Below are positions 1 through 48,728 of a stretch of 64,000 nt of DNA, piece after piece. The DNA comes from the human T2T-CHM13v2.0 reference genome, Homo sapiens. The notes beneath the pieces are model-generated. The model had not been told where the DNA came from. It saw nothing but the letters and a program-made list of their open reading frames with translations, and ran no database searches. The position numbers and the translations under genes are program-made. The DNA is taken from the NCBI RefSeq assembly GCF_009914755.1, contig NC_060938.1; one strand, given 5' to 3'. How positions within the stretch are numbered: the first letter of the stretch is position 1; each line of letters starts with the position of its first letter.

Positions 1-172
1 GTAATTAAAAGAGTGTAATTGGATTGTTTGAAACACAAAGGATAAGGGCTGGAGGTGATGCATACCCCATTTACCCTGATGTGATTATTACACATTGCAT
101 GCCTGTATCAACATATCTCATGTAAGCCGTAAATATACACACCCACTATGCACCCACAAAAATTAAAAATTA
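1..172 (+). mobile_element. L1 3' end (L1MA-like)
   Basis: Matches the L1MA 3'UTR terminus as I recall it (cccatttaccctgatgtgattattacacattgcatgcctgtatc...cccacaaaaattaaaaat). Confidence 0.75.
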
Positions 173-199
173 ATTTTTTTTTAAGAGTTAGGGACAGAT

Positions 200-453
<254 letters not shown>

Positions 454-937
454 GTTAGGGACAGACAAAAACTTTATTAACTGATAAAGGACATTGATGA
501 AGAAAATTACACTAACATACTGTATGATGAAAAACTAAATGCTTTTTTTCAAGTATCAGGAACAAAGCAAGGAGGTATATTTTCATCACTTCCACTCAAC
601 GTAGCACTGGAGTGAGATCAAAAAAATTACCAAGGTTGGAAGGAAAGAAGTTAAATTGTCTTTAATGGCAATAACATAAACTTTTATGTAAAAAAACCTA
701 TTGTATCTACAAAAAAACACCAAAACTAATGTGTTTACCAAGGTTGCAAGATATAAGAGCAATACACAAAAATCAATTGTATTTCTATATACTGTCAATG
801 AAAAAAATCAAGAAATTACAATTGGAAAATATCATTCACAACAGCATCAAACAGAATAAACTAATTACCAATAGATTTACTGAAAGAAGTGCAAGACTTA
901 TTCAATGGAAACTACAAAACATTATTGAAAGAAATGT

Positions 938-1230
938 AGCCAGGTGCAGTGGCTCACATCTGTAATCCCAGCACTTTGGGAGGCCGAGGCAGATGGATCA
1001 CCTGAGGTCAGGAGTTCGAAACCAGCCTGGTCAACATGGCAAAACCCCGTCTCTACTAAAAAATACAAAAATTAGCTGGGAATGGTGGCGGGCGCCTGTA
1101 ATCCCAGCTACTCGGGAGCCTGAGGCAGGGAGAATTGCTTGAACCCAGGAGGCAAAGGCAGGGAGCCAAGATCACTCCACTGCACTCCAGCCTGGGCAAC
1201 AAAGTGAGACTCTGTCTCAAAAAAAAGAGA
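938..1230 (+). mobile_element. Alu (AluS)
   Basis: Full dimer with A-tail; TSD aaagaaatgta. Confidence 0.95.
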
Positions 1231-1649
1231 AAGAAATGTAAAGACCTAAGTAAATGAAAAGATAGCCCATACTCATGGACTGGAATACTTAACATTGTTT
1301 AGATAGCAGTACTTTCCAACTTGATCTACAGACTGAATCCAATAGCTGTAAAACCTCAGCTGCCATTTTTAAAGAATTGGACAAGCTAATCCTAAAATTC
1401 ATATGGAAATGCAAGGAACCCAGAATAGTGAAAGCAATCTTGAAAAAAAGTAACTAAGTTGGAGTTACTTACACACTTCCCAATTTCAAAACTTACTAAA
1501 AGCTACAGTAATCAAGATAGTGTGGTATTGGCATAAAGGCAGATACATAGATCAATGGAATAGCACTGAGAATCTACAAGTAAATTCTTCCACTTATGGT
1601 CAATTGATTTTTGACAAGCATGCCAAAAAAATCAGTAGAAAAACAATAG

Positions 1650-1945
<296 letters not shown>

Positions 1946-2322
1946 AACAATAGTTTTTTCAATGTATGTTCCTGGGACAACATGATATCCACATGCGCAA
2001 GAATGACACCTACAAACATGAAATTGAATCTCACACCACTTACAAAAATTAACCAAAAACAGATAATCAATTTATAAGAGTTAAAACATAAATCTCTTAG
2101 AAAAAAATCTAGGGGGATATCTTTGTGACCTTGTGTTAGGCAATGATTTCTTAGAGAGGACACCATAAGCACAAGCTATAAAATAGGAAAGAGATAATTA
2201 AACTTCATCAAAAGTAAAAACTTTTGAGCTTTAAAAACTCCCCAAGAAAGTGAAAAGACAACCCACTTGAGTGGGAGAAAATATTTGCAAATTATATACC
2301 TGATAAATGTTTAGTATCCTTA

Positions 2323-2652
<330 letters not shown>

Positions 2653-2688
2653 CTACAACAAAAAGATGGCCCAATTAAGAAATGTGCA

Positions 2689-3022
<334 letters not shown>

Positions 3023-3042
3023 AAGAAATGGGCAAAGGATTT

Positions 3043-3138
3043 TTTTTTACAGCAAAGAAAGCAGCAAAAGTTTATTAAGCACAGTATTACACTCTCACAG
3101 GGGGAGAGCGGACTGATCTCAGCAAGATGAGATCAGCC
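3043..3138 (-). pseudogene. About 96-nt processed retrocopy of a polyadenylated transcript 3' end (possibly an LTR R region)
   Basis: T-run at 3041-3048; AATAAA on the minus strand (tttatt 3071-3076) 22 nt from the tail; 20-bp TSD aagaaat(g/t)ggcaaaggattt at 3023-3042 and 3139-3158. Confidence 0.75.
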
Positions 3139-3255
3139 AAGAAATTGGCAAAGGATTTAAATAGTCATGACTACAAACAACATATACAGTAAGCCCTTCA
3201 TATCCATGGGTTCTACATTTGCAGTTTCAATTAACAGCAGATTGAAAATATTTGG

Positions 3256-3610
<355 letters not shown>

Positions 3611-3701
3611 TTAAAAAATACAGTACAACACCTAGTTAGACCATATTTACATTATGTTAGGTATTGTAAGTAATCTAGAGATAATCTAAAGTATATGGGA
3701 T

Positions 3702-4110
3702 GGGCCTGGTGAGGTGGTTCACACCTGTAATCCCAGCACTTTGGGAGGCTGAGGCGGGTGGATCACCTGAGGTGAGGAGTTCAAGACCAGCCTGGCCAAC
3801 ATGGTAAAACCTGTCTCTACTAAAAATATAAAAATTAGCCAGGCATGGTGGCAGGTGCCTGTAATCCCAGCACTTTGGGAGGCTGAGGTGGGAGGATTAC
3901 TTGAGCCCAGGAGTTCAAGATCAGCCTGGGGAACAAAGTGAGACCCCCGTCTACCTCAAAAATCAAAACTGAGGCTTAGGCAGGAGAATTACTTGAACTT
4001 GGGAGGCAGAGGTTGCAGTGAGCCAAGATCATGACACTGCACTCCAGCCTCGGCAACAGAGTGAGACTCCATCTCAAAAAATAAATAAATAAATAAATAA
4101 ATAAAAATAA
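3702..4110 (+). mobile_element. Alu with an extra internal monomer (about 400 bp)
   Basis: Left arm, partial right arm, J-like left-monomer body, then rest of the right arm; TSD taaagt(a/g)tatggga. Confidence 0.88.
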
Positions 4111-4475
4111 AGTGTATGGGAGGATGTTCATAGGCTATATGCAAATACTATGCCATTCTGTATAAGTGAGACGAGCATCCTTGCATTTTGGTATCATCGT
4201 GTGTTTCTGAAACCAATCTTTTGCAGATACCAAGGGAAGACTATGTAAGTAGCCAATAAATACAAAAAAAGATGTTCAATATCAGTGGGCATTAGAAAAA
4301 CTCAACTGAAACTCCAATGAGATGCCACTTACGATAGTACCACAATGAGATATTAGAATGGCTATAATAAAAAAAGACCAACAATAAATATTGGATAGCA
4401 TGTGTAGAAATTAGAACCCTCATATATTGCTGATGGACATGTAAAATGGTGCTGCCCCTTCAAAAAAAAGTCTGG

Positions 4476-4792
4476 GGCCAGGCATGGTAGCTCACACTTG
4501 TAATTTCAACAGTTTAGGAGGTCGAGGTGGGAGGATCGTTTGAGGCCAGGAGTTCAAGACTAGCCTGAGCAACATAATGAGACCCCATCTCTACGAAAAA
4601 AGTTTTAAAAAACGAGCTGGTTGTTGTGGCACGCACCTGTGGTACCAGCTACTCGGGAGGCTGAGGCGAGAGGATTGCTTGAGCCCAAGTGGTCAAGGTT
4701 GCAGTGAGCCATGGTCATGTCACTGCACTCCAGCCTGGACAACAGAGGAAGATCCTGTGTCAAAAACAAACAAACAAAAAAAAACAAAAAAA
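4476..4792 (+). mobile_element. Alu (AluJ-like)
   Basis: Dimer with (CAAA)n tail. Confidence 0.92.
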
Positions 4793-4974
4793 GTCTAGCG
4801 TTTCTTCTTCAAATAGTTAATCACAGAGTTACCATATGCTCCAGCAATTCCACTCCTAGATACACATACTCAAGATGAATGATTAAAACGTATCTACACA
4901 AAAACTTATGCCCAAATTCTCATATTTTTATTTTTTATTTATTTTTACTTTATTAACATTATTTTTATTTATTA

Positions 4975-5262
4975 TTTTAAAGACAGCTCTTGCTCTGTTG
5001 CCCAGGCTGGGGTGTAGTGGTGGGAATACAGCTCACTGCAGCCTCAACCCTCCTGGGATGAAGCTATCCTACCTCCTCAGCCTGCCTCCCAAATAGCTGG
5101 GACTACAGACATGCACTGCCCCAGATAATTTTTTTTATTTTTGGGGTAGACGGGGGTCTCACTTTGTTCCCCAGGCTGATCTTGAACTCCTGGGCTCAAG
5201 TAATCCTCCCACCTCAGCCTCCCAAAGTGCTGGGATTACAGGCATGAGGCACTGTGCCCAGA
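4975..5262 (-). mobile_element. Alu (AluJ-like)
   Basis: Antisense dimer. Confidence 0.92.
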
Positions 5263-5722
5263 CAACAACATTATTTTAATAGCCCAAAGGTGTAAAAAAA
5301 GCAAATGCCTATCAACCAATTAATCTGGAATGTTATTTGAAATATAATAAGTGGCATATATTCTATACGGGATATTATTTGGCCATAAAAAGGAATGAAG
5401 TGCTGATACATAGAACAAGATGGGTGAAACTTGAAAACGTTATGCCAAGTGAAAGAAGCCAGTCACAAAGGACCATCCATATATTATATCATTCCATTTA
5501 TATGCAATGTCCAGATTAGGGAAATCTTTAGAGATGGAAAGTAGATTAGTAGTGGCCTAGGACAGGGAGTGGGGTAGTGGTGATGGGGTGAAGGCTAAAC
5601 AGTGTGAGGTTTTTTTTTTTTTTGAGGGTAACAAAATATTCTAAAATGGGTTGTATTAATGGATACATCATTGTGAATATATTAGTAGCTATTAAATTGT
5701 ATACTTCAAAAAAATTAAAAAT

Positions 5723-37637: not shown

Positions 37638-37885
37638 TTTTTTTGTTGTTGAGGCGAAGTCTCGCTCTGTCACCCAGGTGGGAGTGCAGCGTGGTGTGAT
37701 TATGGCTTATTGCAGCCCTGACCTCCTTGGCTCAAGTGATCCTCCAGCCTCGTGTTTTGATATTTTGTAGAGACCGAGATCTCACTGTGTTGCCCAGGCT
37801 GGTCTCAAACTTCTGGGCTCAAGAAATCCTCCTGCTTTAGCCTCCTAAGGGGCTGGGATTAGAGGCGTGAACCACTGTGCCTGGC
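37638..37885 (-). mobile_element. Alu (AluJ-like)
   Basis: Antisense, internally deleted. Confidence 0.9.
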
Positions 37886-38089
37886 AAAAATAAGTATACT
37901 TGTCACTACCGTGAATACATTTTATTAAAACATTTTATTTACTGTCATTATGTTAGCAATATGTGCATTATACTTATAGATAATATTCTAGAATAGTAAG
38001 AAAGACTATACACGCATGCCCTGCCAAAATTGAATTGTTGCACTTGAAGGGGAAATTTTAATTTGAAAGGCAGGTTTTTAGGAAGGTAG

Positions 38090-38448
<359 letters not shown>

Positions 38449-39142
38449 TTGGGGCAGATTTTTAATATATGTAAATTAAGAATTCTCAGTACTCATTTCA
38501 GCAGTTATGTTGCCTCATTTGGAAAGAAAAGGTATTCAGCATGTGGGGATGCATAATACATTTTAAAAATCCGTTCGTCTTAGTCAATGTGCTCCATGGT
38601 GTCTTTTTTTCAAGGTTCGAGATGACACATTTAGTAGGAGATCAGGTTATGGGATAGTTCATGTTTGGAGAGGGGACAGAATTGATTTACAGACATACCA
38701 CCTGTTTTCTCCTACTTTGGCTTTGGAGGACAAGTTGTAGTATCCTGAGGAAAAGCTGATTGTATCACTTATGACTGAGATTTTCATCTTTAGCCGCTTC
38801 TGTGTGATACATGAATTAATGGGTCATAACATAGGAGTTAGCTAATTTTCATTTTAAAATATTACTCAGAAGATATTTTTATCTTAATTGTACATTTCAA
38901 CAACATAAATAAGCTGTTCAAGACTGTCTCCCATGCCTCCAAAACAAATAAAAACCCCCCACAACTCAAATGCATATAAGCTGTTACTATAGTATAATGG
39001 TGAGTTATAGCCAGTGTATGATGGGATTGTTGATAGAATAATGCATATTAGAGCTTTTAGTTCAAAAATTTGAGATAGTGATTCAGAAAGAAAAAAAGGA
39101 ATGATTATCATGAATTCTGTTTATTAGAATTCTGTTTATTAA

Positions 39143-39463
<321 letters not shown>

Positions 39464-39650
39464 AAGATGTGTTTTATTATTTGCACTTGTGTAATGGCAA
39501 AGAAAATAGGTTACTAAGCTTGCTCTTGTTAGAATATCCTTTGTAGTCACTCATTTGATGATGTTGAGTAAGAATCTTTCCTCTGTTAATACGTCTTTGT
39601 TTAAAAGAAAATAAGTTACCTTTGTAGTCTTTGTACATTTTTCTTTGCAG

Positions 39651-39820
39651 AAAGTTTCCCCTCTGCTGGATAATAATTAATTTTATAAAAGTGTTTAATC
39701 CAGTACTGATTATATTCCCTTGTGAGCTGGATGAAAAGAAACTTCTGAATGTTTGTAACCACAGATTGATGATTTGGTTACAAAGACTCTCTGTTGGTGA
39801 TGGTTTCTGAGAACTGGAAG
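39651..39820 (+). other. Candidate internal 5'-UTR exon (170 nt)
   Basis: Strong acceptor (ctttgtacatttttctttgcag|) and strong donor (AAG|GTAAGC) in non-repetitive sequence; contains stops and only short ATG-initiated ORFs. Confidence 0.65.
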
Positions 39821-40111
39821 GTAAGCTTGTTCCTTGGGTGAGTCATCATGTTGTCTTGCAGTCGGTCATGTGTTTTCTTAGCAACTGCTGTTGATTTCAG
39901 GTTTGAGCAGGGTGAGCATGTTTTGAAATGATCCAACAGATTCTTTTAGGTTATATATGGCTGCTAAATCTTATACACTTACTGTTACTATTATGTGTCT
40001 TACAAGGAGTGAAAGATTGAATTCTTTTTTTATCTCTACCTTCCAAATCATTTCTCTTCTAATTTGTTTTTCAGGGGTAGTGAGGACTGGGAGTGGGGGT
40101 AAAAAAGGAGA

Positions 40112-40842
40112 AAAATAAATGAATCTGGGATATCATGAGTCTGCCTGTTTATGCCCCTGGACTAGAGCAGAACCAAAAGGACCTCCATGTGCTGATAGGG
40201 TTAAATATGATTTCCTGGGGTGTTGATCTTGAGTAATACTCCGTGTGCATACATTCTATAGGAACAAGTGAATTTTAGAAATGTCTGTGGTATAGTGTAG
40301 TGGTTAAAAGCTTGGGTTCTGAAATCAGTCTGACCCCTGGTTCAAATTCTAGCTTTGCCATATACTAGAGGTGTTATTTTGGGCAAATTACTTAACCTCT
40401 CTGAGTAGAGTTTCCTCATCTGTAAAAGTGAAACTAAAATCCCACGTACTTATATTACTGAGATAATACAGGTAACAGAAAGCATAGTACCTATAGAACA
40501 CATGGTAACAAATGCTAGTTATTACATTCAGTTCAAGGGTGCAGTACACAAGGGGCTAGGTATCAGGTGTTTAGGGGACAGTCAGAAATGAATCATATAT
40601 GAGCCCTAATTCTTCAGGAACTGGGGGAGATGGCCTTGTAAACAAGTCACTGTAGTATTATCTAGAATGGAAGAAGTGCCAACTGAAGTACAAGCAAGGT
40701 GCTGTGGGTGCATAAAGCAAGTGATGCCAACTTTGGGGAAGTTAGGGCTAATTTTGTAAAGCATTTGCCATTTGAGCTGAGGGTGTATTGCCAGGCCTAG
40801 AATGATGAGTAGGGCTTTTATGGGTGGAGAGTGGAGGAGAGT
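40112..40842 (+). repeat. Inverted repeat, left arm (731 bp)
   Basis: Exact reverse complement of 45572-46302 except at 40259/46155; contains a MIR (about 40288-40520) and L2-like sequence. Confidence 0.97.
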
Positions 40843-40971
40843 GATTCTCCTGCCTTAGCCTCCCAAGTAGCTGGAGGCTACTCCCAAGTGGAGGAGAGTA
40901 GATTTTGTATTTTTAGTAGAGATGGGGTTTCACCATGTTGAGCAGGCTGGTCTTGAACTCCTGACCTCAGG
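40843..40971 (-). other. Rearrangement junction made of antisense Alu fragments and short templated inserts
   Basis: Every piece maps to nearby sequence; see findings. Confidence 0.85.
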
Positions 40972-41100
40972 AGAATCACGTGAACCCAGGAGGTGGAAGT
41001 TGCAGTGAGCCGAGATCACGCCACTGCACTCCAGCCTGGGCAACAAGAGCAAAACTCTGTACCCACCCCCCCCCCCAAAAAAAAAGAAAAGAAAAAAGAA
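40968..41100 (+). mobile_element. Alu right-arm fragment (broken Alu)
   Basis: caggagaatcacgtgaacccagg...gagcaaaactctgt followed by a C/A tail. Confidence 0.92.
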
Positions 41101-41732
41101 ATTTATCTGGCCTTTAAAAAAAAGAACACCAGGCTGGGCAACCAAGCAAGACCTTGTTTTTACAAATCAAAAACAAAAAACCTGTTTCCATCTACTTCTG
41201 AGATTCCTTTTTCTTTAGCATATCTTCTAGCTCATTAAAAAAGGATTTATGGATCTTCTTGGAAGATAACACTTCCAACAACAAAAATGTTCCTTCTGAC
41301 CCTTTATCTCCAATGACTTGGATTACAAAATTCTTCAATTTTCTTTTCATGGAATTTCAGACTATAGTTTTGAGATTTCTAAGAAATATTTTTTTCCTTA
41401 TCTCAAATCCTTCCCTGTAGAAATATCCCTGATATGTCCTCAGCCCCCAAAATACATATAATATGTTCTCAACCAACAAGAAACACCACTTAAGTTGTTT
41501 CCTCTCCGCTGGTGAACAATTAGAACACTGCTTTAAAAATGTCTTATGCATTCCACAACATTTTCCTGAGTAGAAACAAAACTCGAAACACCAAAGGAAC
41601 TTGAGATGTCAGACTACTAAAACAAAAGAAAATCTCTGTGGTATTCTTTGGGTGAACTCTTTCAATTTACTTAAAAAGCTGGCCAACTAAGAGAGGTACT
41701 AAGATTTGCATCTGTTTTAAAACACTTATTTT

Positions 41733-41850
41733 GGCCAGGCATAGTTGCTCACACCTGTAATCCCACCACTCTGGAAGGCAAAGGTGGGAAAATCGCTTGA
41801 GCCCAGGAGTTCAAGACCAGCCTCAGCAACACAGCTAGACCCCATCTCTA
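41733..41850 (+). mobile_element. Alu monomer (FLAM-like)
   Basis: Left monomer. Confidence 0.87.
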
Positions 41851-42045
41851 TTCTTTTTTTTAAAAAGCTTATCTCAGTATTTCTATATTCCTTTGGACAA
41901 CCTACAGTGCAAAAAAAGTGAAATATCAGTGACACCTACTTTGTTATAGCTTAAAAGTGAGAACAGGTAAATTCTCTAACATACATGATCAAAATTGTAA
42001 GTTCTGTATTTGAAAATAATGATAAAACAGCAATAAGAATCACTG

Positions 42046-42325
42046 GCTGGGCGTGGTAGCTCATGTTGAAATCCCAGCACTTGGAGGCCAAGGCAGGAGA
42101 ATCACTCGAGCCCAGGAATTCAAGACCAACCTAGGCAACATAGTGAGATCCCGTCTCTACAAAAAATTTAAAAATTAGCCAGGTGTGGTGGCACACAACT
42201 GTAGTTCCAGCTCCTCAGGAGACTGAGATGGGAGAATTGCTTGAGCCCAGAAGATGGAGATTGTGCCACTACACTTCAGCCTTGGCAATAGAGCGAGACC
42301 CTCTCTCCAACAAAAAAAGAAAAAA
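42046..42325 (+). mobile_element. Alu (AluJ-like)
   Basis: Dimer. Confidence 0.92.
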
Positions 42326-42329
42326 TTGT

Positions 42330-42540
42330 TAATATTTATTTAGTACTCAATTGGTGCCAGACACTTTACATGCACCATCTCTTTGATCCTATGTTATAAG
42401 CCTATAACACAGAAACCATCTACCTCATTTAAGGAAACAGAGAGGTTAAATAACTTGTCCAAACCATACAGCAAGTTACTGGCAAGACTGGCTTGAACAC
42501 AAGTCTGTTGGGCTCCAAAGCCCATGTCCTTAAACAGTAC
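42330..42540 (-). mobile_element. MIR
   Basis: cagagaggttaaataacttgtccaa and ctccaaagcccatgtccttaa. Confidence 0.75.
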
Positions 42541-42679
42541 CATGAGAGAACTCTTAATGGACAAGATATATCCAGTCTACTCATTTACCCCATGATTCTG
42601 TACAGAAACTTAGCACAGCACATTTATATGAGCATTCAACATATGAAGTAGTTAACAGATTAATATAGTTACCAAACTA

Positions 42680-43422
<743 letters not shown>

Positions 43423-43629
43423 AGCTTTTTGCCCACTGTTGCAGTTAACTGGCAAACTTGTGTAATAAATTAACTAACAGAACTGGTTTAGCAACAAATG
43501 AGATGCACAAGGTCTTTAAATTATAACCCTAGGTATGTTGGTGATTTGAAAGGTGACCTAACAGCATTTAAAGTAAGTTATATTTTATATTTATGGGGCT
43601 TTCAAAACCACAGTCAAAAATAAGAACCC

Positions 43630-43840
43630 AAGCCTGAGTAACATGGCAAAACCCCATCTGTACAGAAAACACAAAAATTAGCCAGGCGTGGTGGTGCACA
43701 CCTGTAGTCCCAGCTGCTAAGGAAGCTGATGTGAGAGGATTGTTTCAGCTCAGGAGGCAGAAGGTACAGTGAGCCGAGATCATGCCACTGCACTCGAGCC
43801 TGGACAGCAGAGTGAGACCCTGCCTTAAAAAAAAAAAAAA
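43630..43840 (+). mobile_element. 5'-truncated Alu
   Basis: TSD aagaaccca. Confidence 0.9.
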
Positions 43841-44695
43841 GGAAGAACCCATATTGATGAAATCTTAGTAATAAACCCTGATATCAAATACCTAGGTGAA
43901 AAGGAAAAAGGTCAAATTCTAGCTACTTTGCCTAATTATTCCCAAGGTCCCAGGTGTCAGAAACATTTAAATAAGATAAACATAAAATTGTCCATAGCAA
44001 TTATCTCTAGGAAGAGAGACTGCAAGAATGGAAAATGAAAGTAATATGGGGAAGGGCTTTTGCCTATGTGTGCATGTGTGCGTGTGTGTGTATGTGTGTG
44101 TGCTGGGGTTTTTGTAATAACAAAAATTCCTTAAAAGGCATTCAAAGTCTGATCAGACTTAATTTTTATCTGCATCCATGAGCTTGGCATAAGGATTACA
44201 CATTTCATTATCTAATAAAGGGGACACCATTAAGGAAAAGAGCAACATTCTCTCTGCCCCTTTGGCCTCTCCAATTGAACTAAAACAAGACTTATTAAGT
44301 TTTTACCCACTCCAAAACAAATGTTTCCATTTCATCAGAAGCAAGAGAGAAAAATCTTAAAGGACATTAACCTTCAAGCAGCTCCGAAGGGAAAGGAATA
44401 TTAGAACTTGAGAAATAAAATGGAGAATGAAACTCCCTTGACACTCTTCAGGTAACAAGGAGAACCACACAGTTAAAGAGCTATTCCCTCCTCATAGTGA
44501 AACCCTGAGGTGGAAACTGATGAAAAGTGTCCCAGAGAGCAGCCTGCTCGCTGCCTCTGGTACTCACTCATTTATCCATTCTTCTGAGCTTAAAGAGAAA
44601 AGATAAAAATGAGAAGTGCTTTAAAATTAAAGTTGATGTTTAAATATCACGTCTCTTCTGAGCCCCTACTTTTTCATCTTAAAAATACTATTTCC

Positions 44696-45011
44696 AGCCA
44701 GGCATGGTGGCTCATGTCTGTAATCCCAGCACTTTGGGAGGCCGAGGTGGATCTCCTGAAGTCAGGAGTTTGAGACCAGCCTGGTCAACATGGTGAAACC
44801 CCATCTCTACTAAAAATACAAAAATTAGCCGGGCGTGGTGGCGGGCACCTGTAATCCCAGCTACTCGGGAGGCTGAGGCAGGAGAATCGCTTGAAACGGA
44901 GGTGGTGGGGGAAGGGGGCAGAGGTTGCAGTGAGCTGAGATCGCGCCACTGCACTTGAGCCTGGGCAACAAGAGCGAAACTTTGTCTCAAAAAAAAAAAA
45001 AAAAAAAAAAA
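44696..45011 (+). mobile_element. Alu (AluS)
   Basis: Dimer with a small G-rich insert and A-tail. Confidence 0.95.
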
Positions 45012-45571
45012 CTGCTCCCAATAAATAATTTGCAAAGGTGCTTAGCATAAAACCTGAGACACAGTGGGTACACAATAAAATGTTAGCTTCCTTCTTTCAG
45101 AACTGAATTTCCAACTGCCGGATAGATCTCGCACTAATCTTTGAGTTCACAAGACCCATTAGCCCACCCCATTGCTGGAATATCCAATTTATCCCATACC
45201 TTCTCCTCCTGTATTTTCTCTCTCTCAAGTAATAGCATGAACATTGTCTTTGGCACCTAGTTTCGAATTGTCTGTCTTCTATCTCCTTTTAATCCCCTCT
45301 GACTCTGTTCTCCAAATGTCTTCATCACTCACCTGAATTTCTGAAACATCCTTGTAATTGGACTCCTGCCTCTCTAATACATCTTTCAAAACATTATTGC
45401 GAAACACAGCTCACACCAAACACCTGCTTTGGTTCCCCATTGGCCATGAGAATATAGTCTGAACACTTGTGTGTGAAAAACCCTCCAAAATATAACCACA
45501 AATCATCTATCCAGCCTTCTCTCCCACCACACCCTGCCATTAACCCTGTGCTTTTCTTCAGCCCACAATCT

Positions 45572-46302
45572 ACTCTCCTCCACTCTCCACCCATAAAAGC
45601 CCTACTCATCATTCTAGGCCTGGCAATACACCCTCAGCTCAAATGGCAAATGCTTTACAAAATTAGCCCTAACTTCCCCAAAGTTGGCATCACTTGCTTT
45701 ATGCACCCACAGCACCTTGCTTGTACTTCAGTTGGCACTTCTTCCATTCTAGATAATACTACAGTGACTTGTTTACAAGGCCATCTCCCCCAGTTCCTGA
45801 AGAATTAGGGCTCATATATGATTCATTTCTGACTGTCCCCTAAACACCTGATACCTAGCCCCTTGTGTACTGCACCCTTGAACTGAATGTAATAACTAGC
45901 ATTTGTTACCATGTGTTCTATAGGTACTATGCTTTCTGTTACCTGTATTATCTCAGTAATATAAGTACGTGGGATTTTAGTTTCACTTTTACAGATGAGG
46001 AAACTCTACTCAGAGAGGTTAAGTAATTTGCCCAAAATAACACCTCTAGTATATGGCAAAGCTAGAATTTGAACCAGGGGTCAGACTGATTTCAGAACCC
46101 AAGCTTTTAACCACTACACTATACCACAGACATTTCTAAAATTCACTTGTTCCTTTAGAATGTATGCACACGGAGTATTACTCAAGATCAACACCCCAGG
46201 AAATCATATTTAACCCTATCAGCACATGGAGGTCCTTTTGGTTCTGCTCTAGTCCAGGGGCATAAACAGGCAGACTCATGATATCCCAGATTCATTTATT
46301 TT
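45572..46302 (-). repeat. Inverted repeat, right arm (731 bp)
   Basis: Reverse complement of 40112-40842. Confidence 0.97.
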
Positions 46303-46541
46303 CCAGCTGTTTTTTTCTCATCTACTGTCATTTTACTTTTTTAAATTTAAATTTAAATTTTTAATTTTACTTTTTTGTCTTTAACCAGTTAGAATGCTAA
46401 GATTTGATGGTTAAATAAGACCAAGTATCAAATATTTAGTACGAACTCTCCATTTATCAATGCGGTTGCACAGAAATGGATGGTTCTTTGGAGGCAGAGT
46501 TAAAGAGTAATACAAACTCAAGAAGGACAGAAAGGAACTAA

Positions 46542-46904
<363 letters not shown>

Positions 46905-46956
46905 TAACATTCTAGTATGAAAACCATTATCTAAAGTGGTTTTAAAAGAGATGTCA

Positions 46957-47145
46957 TTTTTTTTTTTTTTAATCTTTCAGAGACAGGGTCTCACTGTGAG
47001 AACCCCAGCTAACTTTTATGTTTTTTGTAGAGATGGGGTTTCGCCATGTTGCCCAGGCTGGTCTCAAACTCCTGAGCTTAAGCTGCCTGCCTGCCTCAGC
47101 CTCCCAAAGTGTTAGGATTACAGGTGTGAGCCACTGCACCTGGCC
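46957..47145 (-). mobile_element. Alu, internally deleted
   Basis: Antisense consensus. Confidence 0.88.
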
Positions 47146-47499
47146 AACTTAAATTATATCTATATATAGATATTGTTTAAAAATTACATAATATTTAGGA
47201 CCTATGAAAAGGTATAAATGATTATACAGTAAGTATATACCTGCTTTAGCATCCTAGTTCAGAAATAAAATATTGCTAATTTGGTTGTGACCTCTTCCTC
47301 CTCCCCAGAGGAAGCTGCTGTACTGAATTTGGTATTTATCATGCTTATGTGTTGCTTAACAATTTTGTTGCATATGAATGTTAAGGTTGATTTTCAAAGT
47401 ATTTGACAGCTGGTAGTGTGTGGGCCCGGCCGTGTCAAGTTGTACCAGCCTAATATTAGTCCTATCATGGATCCCTGGGAGATACTTTAAGATTCTATC

Positions 47500-48160
<661 letters not shown>

Positions 48161-48728
48161 TTACTGTATGTTGCACATTCTTCTGCAAGTTGCTATCTTT
48201 CCTCTCAACTGTGAGATTCATCCGTCTTGGTATATATGTAACTCTGATTCATTGATTTTCATTGTTTAATATTCCATTGTATTAGTATGTCTCAGTTTAT
48301 CCATTCACTTATTGGTTGATATTTAGTTTTTTATGTCTCCTTCTAGGACCCACCTGTTCACGTCTTTTGCTTATTTTCCTGTTGGGTTGTTTGTCTTTTT
48401 CGTTTTGATTTGTAGGTGTATTGTTTTTGTAGTTTTCTGGAAACAGTTACTCATTAACATGCACATAAACCACATAATGACAGCTTTGCCTTTCCGATAT
48501 TATTGGAGCTACATATAGCTACTCATATTTGAAAATGGGTATACTCTAATCAGACTGATGTGAAGTACATAAGTAGAATTGTCTGAGTGTTAATATGCCA
48601 GTGACTGTAGATATAAACATATTTCTTTATTTAGAATGGATATGACTTACTTTTTTTTTTGATAAAGATTAATTTCCCCATATTTCCATAGTCATGCAGG
48701 TGAAGGTGTGGACTCTACAGTACTCTAA

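What the first reader, a model, noticed from the sequence alone, without database searches (positions are those of the whole stretch)
40112..46302. 731-bp near-perfect inverted duplication flanking a 4.7-kb spacer inside a probable intron
Seen: 40112-40842 is the reverse complement of 45572-46302 with one mismatch (40259 T vs 46155 T) by base-by-base comparison. The arms are ordinary old DNA (unique sequence, MIR, L2-like), not two copies of a young transposon, so one arm was copied from the other. Inference: about 99.9% identity means either a very recent (possibly lineage-specific or still polymorphic) event or ongoing homogenisation by gene conversion.
Basis: partly seen in the sequence, partly recalled or inferred. 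Interest (0 to 1): 0.8.

Follow-up and report, generated by a model that had tools for sequence, protein, structure and literature searches.

The report
Young inverted duplication flanking flipped intron segment
A 731-base stretch of ordinary DNA in the first intron of the human SYNE2 gene is present twice in opposite orientation around a 4.7-kb segment that looks flipped, most likely the scar of one recent copying accident during DNA replication; it is real and neat, but belongs to a known kind of rearrangement.

Summary
40112-40842 is the reverse complement of 45572-46302: 731 nt, one mismatch at 40259/46155, 4,729 nt between the arms. The arm occurs only at these two places in the assembly. 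Only its middle is an old MIR-like repeat.

The inner edge of the left arm is a rearrangement scar. It abuts a 3'-truncated antisense Alu piece folded back onto the 3' half of an Alu, with a 12-nt inverted overlap. A 27-nt filler there is fully explained by three short copies of neighbouring sequence. One copy reads 5 nt across the inner junction of the right arm.

With Alus masked, the spacer has a G/C strand skew opposite to all 53 same-size control tiles from 264 kb of SYNE2.

Best reading: a microhomology-mediated template-switch event of the duplication-flanked inversion class. It is either young (about 1.4 Myr, 95% interval 0.035-7.6) or kept identical by gene conversion.

I had no ape or population sequences, so age, polarity and polymorphism remain inferred. 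The pair is absent from the inversion tables I could read.

The parts
40112..40842 (+). Left arm (D), 731 nt. G>C on the + strand (GC skew +0.20), like the rest of the gene. It holds an old MIR-like repeat at about 40294-40471.
   Evidence: identity; two copies only, old repeat at arm positions of about 183-360; skew. The name MIR is my recognition of the sequence, not a tool result.
45572..46302 (-). Right arm (D'), the reverse complement of the left arm with one mismatch at 46155. Its inner junction 45571|45572 looks ancestral.
   Evidence: the 18 nt at 45567-45584, which span this junction, are copied in inverted orientation into the scar at 40887-40904; the inner flank 45272-45571 is unique sequence.
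40843..40974 (-). Scar at the inner edge of the left arm: an antisense Alu piece (positions 66-203 of an in-window reference Alu). It is truncated on its 3' side, so retrotransposition alone cannot have put it here. Its middle is replaced by a 27-nt filler.
   Evidence: Alu hits start at 40840-40844; Alu map.
40875..40901 (.). The 27-nt filler, explained entirely by three overlapping short copies. 40873-40880 is an inverted copy of 40856-40863 (8 nt). 40881-40889 is a direct copy of 40860-40868 (9 nt). 40887-40899 is a direct copy of the arm end 40830-40842 (13 nt), or 18 nt (40887-40904) as an inverted copy of 45567-45584.
   Evidence: exact-match tables.
40968..41100 (+). Sense Alu 3' half (reference positions 191-283) with its A-rich tail. 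It is joined head to head to the antisense piece. The 12 nt at 40968-40979 are the exact reverse complement of 40841-40852.
41101..45571 (.). Rest of the spacer: mostly unique sequence plus six sense-oriented Alu elements. RefSeq enhancer fragments lie at 43337-43386 and 43507-43556 (hub annotation). Strand composition is opposite to that of the surrounding gene.
   Evidence: content; skew.
40111..40112 (.). Outer junction of the left arm. No microhomology, no filler, and no old repeat crosses it.
46302..46303 (.). Outer junction of the right arm, the second new junction under the preferred model. No Alu remnant follows, so the Alu 5' end was lost. No old repeat crosses it.

Best explanation
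This is a small inverted low-copy duplication, 731 nt of unique-plus-MIR DNA, made by one complex, microhomology-mediated template-switching accident of DNA replication or repair (FoSTeS/MMBIR-like, or polymerase-theta-like end joining). The product has the layout of a duplication-flanked inversion (dupINV/INVdup).

Inferred ancestral order: left flank - D - spacer in the opposite orientation - right flank.

Inferred path of the new strand:
1. It copied D.
2. It jumped about 4.7 kb ahead into an antisense Alu.
3. It made three short templated patches.
4. It folded back onto the other strand inside the same Alu.
5. It copied the whole spacer and D backwards.
6. It rejoined the right flank, losing the Alu 5' end.

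The same present structure would also arise from an inverted duplication followed by one seamless exchange between the arms.

The event is recent, probably on the human lineage. The pair now has a 583-nt perfectly identical tract, so it can flip the 4.7-kb segment again by non-allelic homologous recombination and can exchange sequence by gene conversion. Both arms lie in one SYNE2 intron, so they can also pair as a 730-bp RNA duplex in the pre-mRNA.

Shown: the duplication, its copy number, the scar and its templated patches, and the reversed strand composition. Inferred: the order of switches, the ancestral orientation, the age, and any recombination or RNA consequence.
For: (1) Identity and uniqueness: 731 nt with 1 mismatch, and two copies in the assembly.

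(2) The junction 40842|40843 is novel. An antisense Alu piece starts within 2 nt of the arm end and lacks its 3' end. It overlaps the adjoining sense Alu half by an exact 12-nt inverted repeat, 40841-40852 / 40968-40979.

(3) The 27-nt filler decomposes completely into three local copies of 8, 9 and 13-18 nt that overlap by 2-3 nt. The 18-nt copy spans the right arm's inner junction, so that junction existed first.

(4) Strand composition after masking Alus. The spacer has GC skew -0.167, against +0.059 +/- 0.065 in 53 independent same-size tiles over 264 kb of SYNE2. 0 of 53 independent tiles and 0 of 1,052 sliding tiles are as low. The flipped value +0.167 is reached by 2 of 53 and 76 of 1,052.

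(5) The three disjoint parts of the spacer each lean the same way. Sliding tiles as low versus as high as the flipped value: 89 vs 420, 139 vs 819, 12 vs 58.

(6) The most C-rich segment of the whole Alu-masked window is 40791-46386, against the predicted flipped block 40843-46302.

(7) The left arm's own skew (+0.20) agrees with the gene and the right arm's (-0.24) does not.

(8) Age from 1 mismatch: maximum likelihood 1.37 Myr, 95% interval 0.035-7.6 Myr.

(9) The class is established. Passages of Collins 2017 list dupINV and INVdup among CNV-flanked inversions, which made up 77.2% of complex variants and were attributed to MMBIR/FoSTeS or multi-break repair. Passages of Giner-Delgado 2019 report 18 non-homologous inversions with small indels attributed to a single FoSTeS/MMBIR event.
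Against: No outgroup or second human haplotype was available, so the ancestral state is inferred only from composition and the scar.

The skew signal is uneven. Most of the G/C deficit comes from 41000-41500 and 45000-45571, and the middle 3.5 kb is only mildly negative (GC -0.042; 5 of 72 independent tiles are as low).

The boundaries of the most C-rich segment are partly forced by the arms' own opposite skews.

The flipped GC skew (+0.167) would itself be in the upper tail (2 of 53), so part of the signal is local composition.

No old repeat crosses either outer junction, so neither can be shown to be ancestral. The outer junctions show no microhomology, which is less typical of MMBIR.

The junction between the two Alu pieces could be an older, separate event.

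Alu orientation carries no weight: six sense Alus lie in the spacer and antisense ones outside, but the window background is 36 + to 40 -.
Confidence: 0.6

Rival explanations
1. The duplication is old (older than the human-chimpanzee split) and its arms have been kept nearly identical by repeated gene conversion and NAHR between them, as in larger inverted repeats that flank recurrent inversions. The scar records how it arose, but the 99.9% identity says nothing about its age.
For: One mismatch is still compatible with about 6.5 Myr at the slow rate (P = 0.05-0.086). The arms are only 4.7 kb apart and share tracts of 583 and 147 identical nt. Passages of Giner-Delgado 2019 report NAHR inversions with inverted repeats from 654 bp, and 14 of 22 such inversions polymorphic in apes too.
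Against: P(1 mismatch or fewer) falls to 1e-4 at 16 Myr and 1e-8 at 29 Myr without conversion, so conversion would have to be frequent for a tract of only 731 nt. The reversed strand composition of the spacer has not re-equilibrated, although that takes tens of Myr and is a weak clock. No inversion call at this place appears in the T2T-based table of 373 sites.
Confidence: 0.3
2. Simple inverted insertion without inversion. The right-hand copy and the spacer are in their native orientation. An inverted copy of the right-hand 731 nt was synthesised into the 5' part of a sense Alu on the left, replacing it.
For: It needs the same number of template switches and explains the scar equally well. 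The right arm's inner junction is ancestral in this model too.
Against: The spacer and the right arm would then natively carry a G/C skew opposite to every one of 53 control tiles of the same gene. The left arm, supposedly the copy, is the one whose skew matches the gene.
Confidence: 0.12
3. The right arm is the inserted copy, and the left arm with its Alu junction is ancestral.
For: This cannot be excluded from one genome. The outer junctions are uninformative.
Against: The Alu piece next to the left arm lacks its 3' end, so that junction is a rearrangement. The filler repeats the arm end and continues with 5 nt identical to the flank of the right arm's inner junction. The arm itself is followed by 4 of these nt after a 1-nt gap. 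Under this model both would be coincidences.
Confidence: 0.04
4. Assembly artefact, or a mobile element with terminal inverted repeats.
For: None found.
Against: The arms are far shorter than the long reads used for such assemblies (general knowledge, not tested here). A collapse or mis-join would not create a filler built from three templated patches. There is no target-site duplication and no other copy in the genome, so it is not a transposon.
Confidence: 0.02

Closest known systems
Duplication-flanked inversions (dupINV / INVdup complex structural variants) attributed to FoSTeS/MMBIR template switching
   Same: An inverted duplicate at one end of a segment that appears inverted. A breakpoint with microhomology and short templated insertions. 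A small loss at the other breakpoint. Passages of Collins 2017 and Giner-Delgado 2019 describe the class and the proposed mechanism.
   Different: Those were called as variants against a reference in cohorts, mostly at kilobase-to-megabase scale. Here the structure is in the reference-quality assembly itself. Its ancestral allele has not been seen, and the inversion is inferred only from strand composition.
Inverted repeats that mediate recurrent polymorphic inversions by NAHR (InvFEST HsInv set)
   Same: Highly identical inverted repeats bracket a few kilobases. At 731 nt the pair is within the reported range of 654 bp to 24.2 kb, and the 5.5-kb mid-to-mid size is close to the smallest validated case of 5.1 kb.
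   Different: No evidence here that both orientations exist in people. The locus is not among the 22 candidates of Aguado 2014, whose two chr14 entries lie elsewhere. SYNE2 is not mentioned in the main text of Giner-Delgado 2019. The locus is not in the T2T table of 373 sites. The validated inverted repeats in Aguado 2014 are 1.6-32 kb.
Inverted duplications at inversion breakpoints explained by staggered breaks (described for Drosophila inversions; recalled, no paper read here)
   Same: An inverted segment flanked by inverted copies of sequence that was single-copy at one breakpoint.
   Different: The staggered-break model predicts clean junctions and, for the second break, a duplicate next to the other arm. 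Here the 12-nt inverted overlap lies within 140 nt on one side and the junction carries templated filler. That fits template switching better.
Long intramolecular double-stranded RNAs from inverted repeats in introns (ADAR substrates)
   Same: Both arms lie in one intron of a + strand gene (hub annotation). They would pair over 730 bp at -1434.8 kcal/mol. In dsRNAscan only 2,018 of 5,134,754 predicted dsRNAs are longer than 300 bp and more than 96% paired; 88% of those are intergenic and most come from LINE pairs (section read).
   Different: Formation and editing were not tested. SYNE2 is not mentioned in the main texts searched. The one supplement file held had no hit. The 4.7-kb loop and the intronic location make a cytoplasmic role unlikely.

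Membership tests
Segmental duplication (low-copy repeat) | At least 1 kb long and at least 90% identical (conventional threshold, recalled) | tested here: not met
   Identity is 99.9% but the length is 731 nt. This is below the threshold, which may be why standard duplication tracks would miss it.
Segmental duplication (low-copy repeat) | Not a high-copy transposable element | tested here: met
   Two full copies in the assembly. Only arm positions of about 183-360 hit an old repeat, at 72-88%.
dupINV / INVdup complex rearrangement | Duplicated segment present in inverted orientation at the far end of the rearranged block | tested here: met
dupINV / INVdup complex rearrangement | The block between the copies is inverted relative to the ancestral allele | tested here: inconclusive
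   No ancestral allele was available. Alu-masked GC skew of the spacer is -0.167, against 0 of 53 control tiles as low and 2 of 53 as high as the flipped value. This is indirect support only.
dupINV / INVdup complex rearrangement | Breakpoint signature of replicative or alternative end-joining repair (microhomology, templated insertions) | tested here: met
   A 27-nt filler made of three local copies overlapping by 2-3 nt, and a 12-nt inverted overlap at the Alu fold-back. The outer junctions show no microhomology.
NAHR-mediated recurrent polymorphic inversion | Inverted repeats more than 90% identical and long enough for homologous exchange | tested here: met
   731 nt with identical tracts of 583 and 147 nt. 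The reported range starts at 654 bp.
NAHR-mediated recurrent polymorphic inversion | Both orientations found among individuals | tested here: inconclusive
   No row with these coordinates in the T2T inversion table of 373 sites, nor in the stored, truncated part of the HGSVC3 supplement. Other catalogues could not be read. No population sequence was on hand.
Transposon with terminal inverted repeats | Target-site duplication at the outer edges and further copies in the genome | tested here: not met
   The 10 nt outside the two arms are unrelated. There is no other copy.
Cruciform- or hairpin-prone palindrome (fragile inverted repeat) | Short or absent spacer between the arms | tested here: not met
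   The spacer is 4,729 nt. That short spacers are required is recalled knowledge.
Long intronic dsRNA / hyper-edited region | Both arms on one transcript and able to pair | tested here: met
   Both arms lie in SYNE2 intron 1 by the hub's annotation. The duplex has 730 pairs at -1434.8 kcal/mol.
Long intronic dsRNA / hyper-edited region | A-to-I editing clusters or other evidence of the duplex in cells | not testable with these tools
   No RNA data were available. There is no mention of SYNE2 in the two dsRNA papers searched.

The most novel reading that the evidence does not exclude
The structure is a human-lineage-specific, possibly still polymorphic or toggling, 5.5-kb inversion switch in SYNE2 intron 1. 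It lies 292 nt downstream of an alternative exon and carries two annotated enhancer fragments. It also gives the SYNE2 pre-mRNA one of the very few long (730-bp), perfectly paired, non-transposon intragenic RNA duplexes in the genome, which would be an unusually strong ADAR substrate. The intact scar would then make it a textbook, fully resolved example of how an inverted repeat that later drives recurrent inversion is born in a single template-switching event.
Probability: 0.15. Interest if true: 0.55.

Novelty: new member of a known kind. Interest (0 to 1): 0.33.

Why it matters
Inverted repeats that drive recurrent inversions are usually studied long after their origin, when the founding junctions have decayed. 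Here the founding scar is intact and readable base by base, so the locus shows how such a repeat pair can arise in one step. At 731 nt it lies below the 1-kb cut-off of duplication catalogues and at the lower edge of repeats known to mediate inversions, so it is the kind of site that surveys miss. Any effect on SYNE2 regulation or RNA is speculative. For a specialist this is a tidy but unsurprising case.

Tried and rejected
(1) Old repeats crossing the outer junctions, to tell which is ancestral. None cross 40111|40112 or 46302|46303, so this was uninformative.

(2) Alu orientation as a polarity marker. Six sense Alus lie in the spacer, with 3 antisense Alus to the left and 2 to the right. The window has 36 + and 40 - elements with no visible clustering, so every pattern is equally likely. 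Rejected.

(3) A possible target-site-duplication or homeology link between the arm's outer end and the flank of the Alu tail. The match is 14 of 17, but 54 of 12,742 window tiles score as well. Rejected as chance.

(4) Global minimum-sum segment search over 264 kb. It picks segments of 60-75 kb elsewhere because of slow drift, so it is not useful. The raw-sum search within the window was used instead.

(5) A CTCF-like motif in the spacer (consensus recalled). Two matches in the window, neither within 38000-48500, and 20 of 100 shuffles do as well. Nothing there.

(6) Rfam. All 36 matches in 38000-48500 are below their gathering scores and are Alu-derived SRP or miRNA look-alikes. None lies in the arms.

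(7) Literature for this locus. Four full-text searches combining SYNE2 with inversion, inverted repeat, HsInv or human-specific structural variants gave 0 relevant papers.

(8) Supplements that could not be read: Porubsky 2022 and Kronenberg 2018 are not held under the ids I tried; PMC12485790 and PMC10028934 have no files; the ape-genome paper holds only an unreadable PDF. These tables could hold a call at this locus.

Full report
**Observation**

The claimed inverted duplication is real and placed exactly as described. 40112-40842 equals the reverse complement of 45572-46302 over 731 nt, with a single mismatch at 40259/46155. The repeat finder reports the same pair with 4,729 nt between the arms.

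Outside the arms the match collapses at once. The next 11 outer bases match at 7 of 11. Gapped alignments of 400-nt flanks score no better than shuffles.

In the 64-kb window it is the only inverted pair above 90% complementarity among 24 pairs of 150 nt or more. The rest are 79-90% Alu pairs.

**What the arms are**

A search of the whole assembly finds the arm at full length only at these two places. The other 38 of 40 scored matches are 72-88% hits to arm positions of about 183-360, on many chromosomes. That is an old interspersed repeat, which I recognise as MIR (my recognition, not a tool result). The remainder of the arm is unique.

The 10 nt outside the two arms are unrelated, so there is no target-site duplication. 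The pair is therefore not a transposon. One copy was made from the other.

By the hub's annotation the whole structure lies in intron 1 of SYNE2 (NM_182914.3), 292 nt downstream of an alternative exon (39628-39820). Two RefSeq enhancer fragments lie in the spacer.

**The scar**

The inner edge of the left arm is a rearrangement junction.
- Genome hits of an abundant repeat start at 40840-44, within 2 nt of the arm end.
- Mapping against an in-window Alu shows an antisense Alu piece at 40840-40970 (reference positions 66-203). A sense Alu 3' half follows directly at 40968-41060 (positions 191-283) with its A-rich tail.
- The antisense piece lacks its 3' end, which retrotransposition cannot produce.
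- The two pieces overlap by an exact 12-nt inverted repeat, 40841-40852 / 40968-40979. They look like two parts of one Alu folded back on itself.

Inside the antisense piece, 27 nt (40875-40901) replace the Alu middle. This filler is completely accounted for by three overlapping short copies of nearby sequence:
- an 8-nt inverted copy of 40856-40863;
- a 9-nt direct copy of 40860-40868;
- a 13-nt direct copy of the arm's last bases, 40830-40842.

The last copy continues for 5 more nt that are identical to the sequence next to the right arm's inner edge. That gives an 18-nt exact inverted match, 40887-40904 = 45567-45584. The left arm itself is also followed by 4 of those nt after a 1-nt gap.

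Two conclusions follow. The junction 45571|45572 existed before the event, so it is ancestral. The junction 40842|40843 is new. Serial short templated patches joined by 2-4 nt of microhomology are the recognised signature of replicative template switching or polymerase-theta-type end joining (established knowledge; the class is described in passages read).

**Polarity**

Two models fit the scar.
- Model (a): a duplication-flanked inversion. The left arm stays in place and the spacer plus a copy of the arm is laid down backwards.
- Model (b): an inverted copy of the right-hand segment is inserted on the left, with no inversion.

No old repeat crosses either outer junction, and Alu orientation carries no information (36 + to 40 - in the window).

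I therefore used strand composition. Transcribed human DNA tends to carry G>C and T>A on the coding strand (established knowledge). With Alus and A/T runs masked, 53 independent 4.7-kb tiles over 264 kb of SYNE2 (the window plus the next 200 kb) have GC skew +0.059 +/- 0.065 and TA skew +0.049 +/- 0.079.

| Measure | Spacer | Control tiles as low | Control tiles as high as the flipped value |
|---|---|---|---|
| GC skew | -0.167 | 0 of 53 independent; 0 of 1,052 sliding | 2 of 53; 76 of 1,052 |
| TA skew | -0.051 | 5 of 53 independent | 26 of 53 |

Further points:
- The three disjoint parts of the spacer each lean the same way (89 vs 420, 139 vs 819 and 12 vs 58 sliding tiles).
- The left arm's skew (+0.20) agrees with the gene and the right arm's (-0.24) does not.
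- The most C-rich segment of the whole masked window is 40791-46386, against the predicted flipped block 40843-46302.
- The non-Alu parts of the spacer are mostly unique sequence, not a large transposon that could explain the skew.

Caveats:
- Most of the deficit sits in 41000-41500 and 45000-45571.
- The segment boundaries are partly forced by the arms' own skews.
- Only Alus were masked.
- Tail counts are a crude likelihood.

I take this as fair but indirect support for model (a). It supports equally an inverted duplication followed by one seamless exchange between the arms, which gives the same sequence.

**Age**

One mismatch in 731 nt gives a maximum-likelihood age of 1.37 Myr (95% interval 0.035-7.6 Myr) at 0.5e-9 per site per year. 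Without conversion, P(1 mismatch or fewer) is 0.05 at 6.5 Myr, 0.01 at 9 Myr and 1e-4 at 16 Myr. With 1e-9 per site per year it is 8e-4 at 6.5 Myr. Each arm has only 2 CpG sites.

So the pair is either young, most likely on the human lineage, or homogenised. Gene conversion is plausible: the arms are 4.7 kb apart and have identical tracts of 583 and 147 nt. I cannot separate the two without ape sequences.

**Consequences (inferred)**

The pair is within the size range of inverted repeats reported to mediate recurrent human inversions: 654 bp to 24.2 kb (passage read). Validated cases in Aguado 2014 have repeats of 1.6-32 kb and inversions of 5.1-226 kb (Table 1 read). It could therefore flip the roughly 5.5-kb block.

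I found no record that it does.
- It is not among the 22 candidates of Aguado 2014, whose chr14 entries lie elsewhere.
- SYNE2 does not occur in the main text of Giner-Delgado 2019 or of the 2026 ultralong-read paper.
- No row with these coordinates is in the T2T-based table of 373 sites, nor in the stored, truncated part of the HGSVC3 supplement.
- Several other catalogues could not be read, so absence from print is not shown.

In the pre-mRNA the arms could pair over 730 bp at -1434.8 kcal/mol. Duplexes that long and that well paired are rare: 2,018 of 5,134,754 predictions, 88% of them intergenic and mostly from LINE pairs (section read). Formation and editing were not tested.

No CTCF-like motif and no Rfam family above threshold lies in the structure.

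**Verdict**

This is a genuine, cleanly resolved small inverted duplication with an intact founding scar. It is best read as a young duplication-flanked inversion made by template switching. It is a new member of a known kind of rearrangement, of moderate-to-low interest unless it proves human-specific, polymorphic or active at the RNA level.

Noticed in passing
window 37755-48126: All six Alu elements inside the spacer are sense (+). The three nearest Alus on the left and the two nearest on the right are antisense (-). Flipping the spacer back would give 11 consecutive antisense Alus. With a 36:40 background this has no statistical weight.
   Followed up: yes
window 31-5646: The strongest A>T (negative TA) strand skew in the Alu-masked window lies at its very start (raw sum -315; the tile 1-4729 has TA skew -0.208). 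The cause was not examined. It could be a sense-oriented A-rich element such as an L1 fragment.
   Followed up: no
window 43125-43427: An old, very abundant repeat of about 300 nt (10,412 first-look candidates, 73-76% identity; an SRP-like hit on the + strand) covers the RefSeq 'enhancer' fragment 43337-43386. That annotated element therefore lies in an old Alu-like repeat.
   Followed up: partly
window 38000-48500: Sub-threshold Rfam matches to mir-1268, mir-3135, mir-1285 and Metazoa_SRP all coincide with Alu elements and are below their gathering scores. They are ordinary Alu look-alikes, not genes.
   Followed up: yes
window 46340-46372: A short A/T-rich tandem run (repeated AAATTT-type units) lies 40 nt outside the right arm. 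It was not analysed further.
   Followed up: no
window 41125-41187: A 55-60-nt fragment resembling the 3' end of an Alu-type element (82-92% to many loci) lies just beyond the A-rich tail of the Alu half at the scar. It may be a remnant of an older insertion.
   Followed up: no
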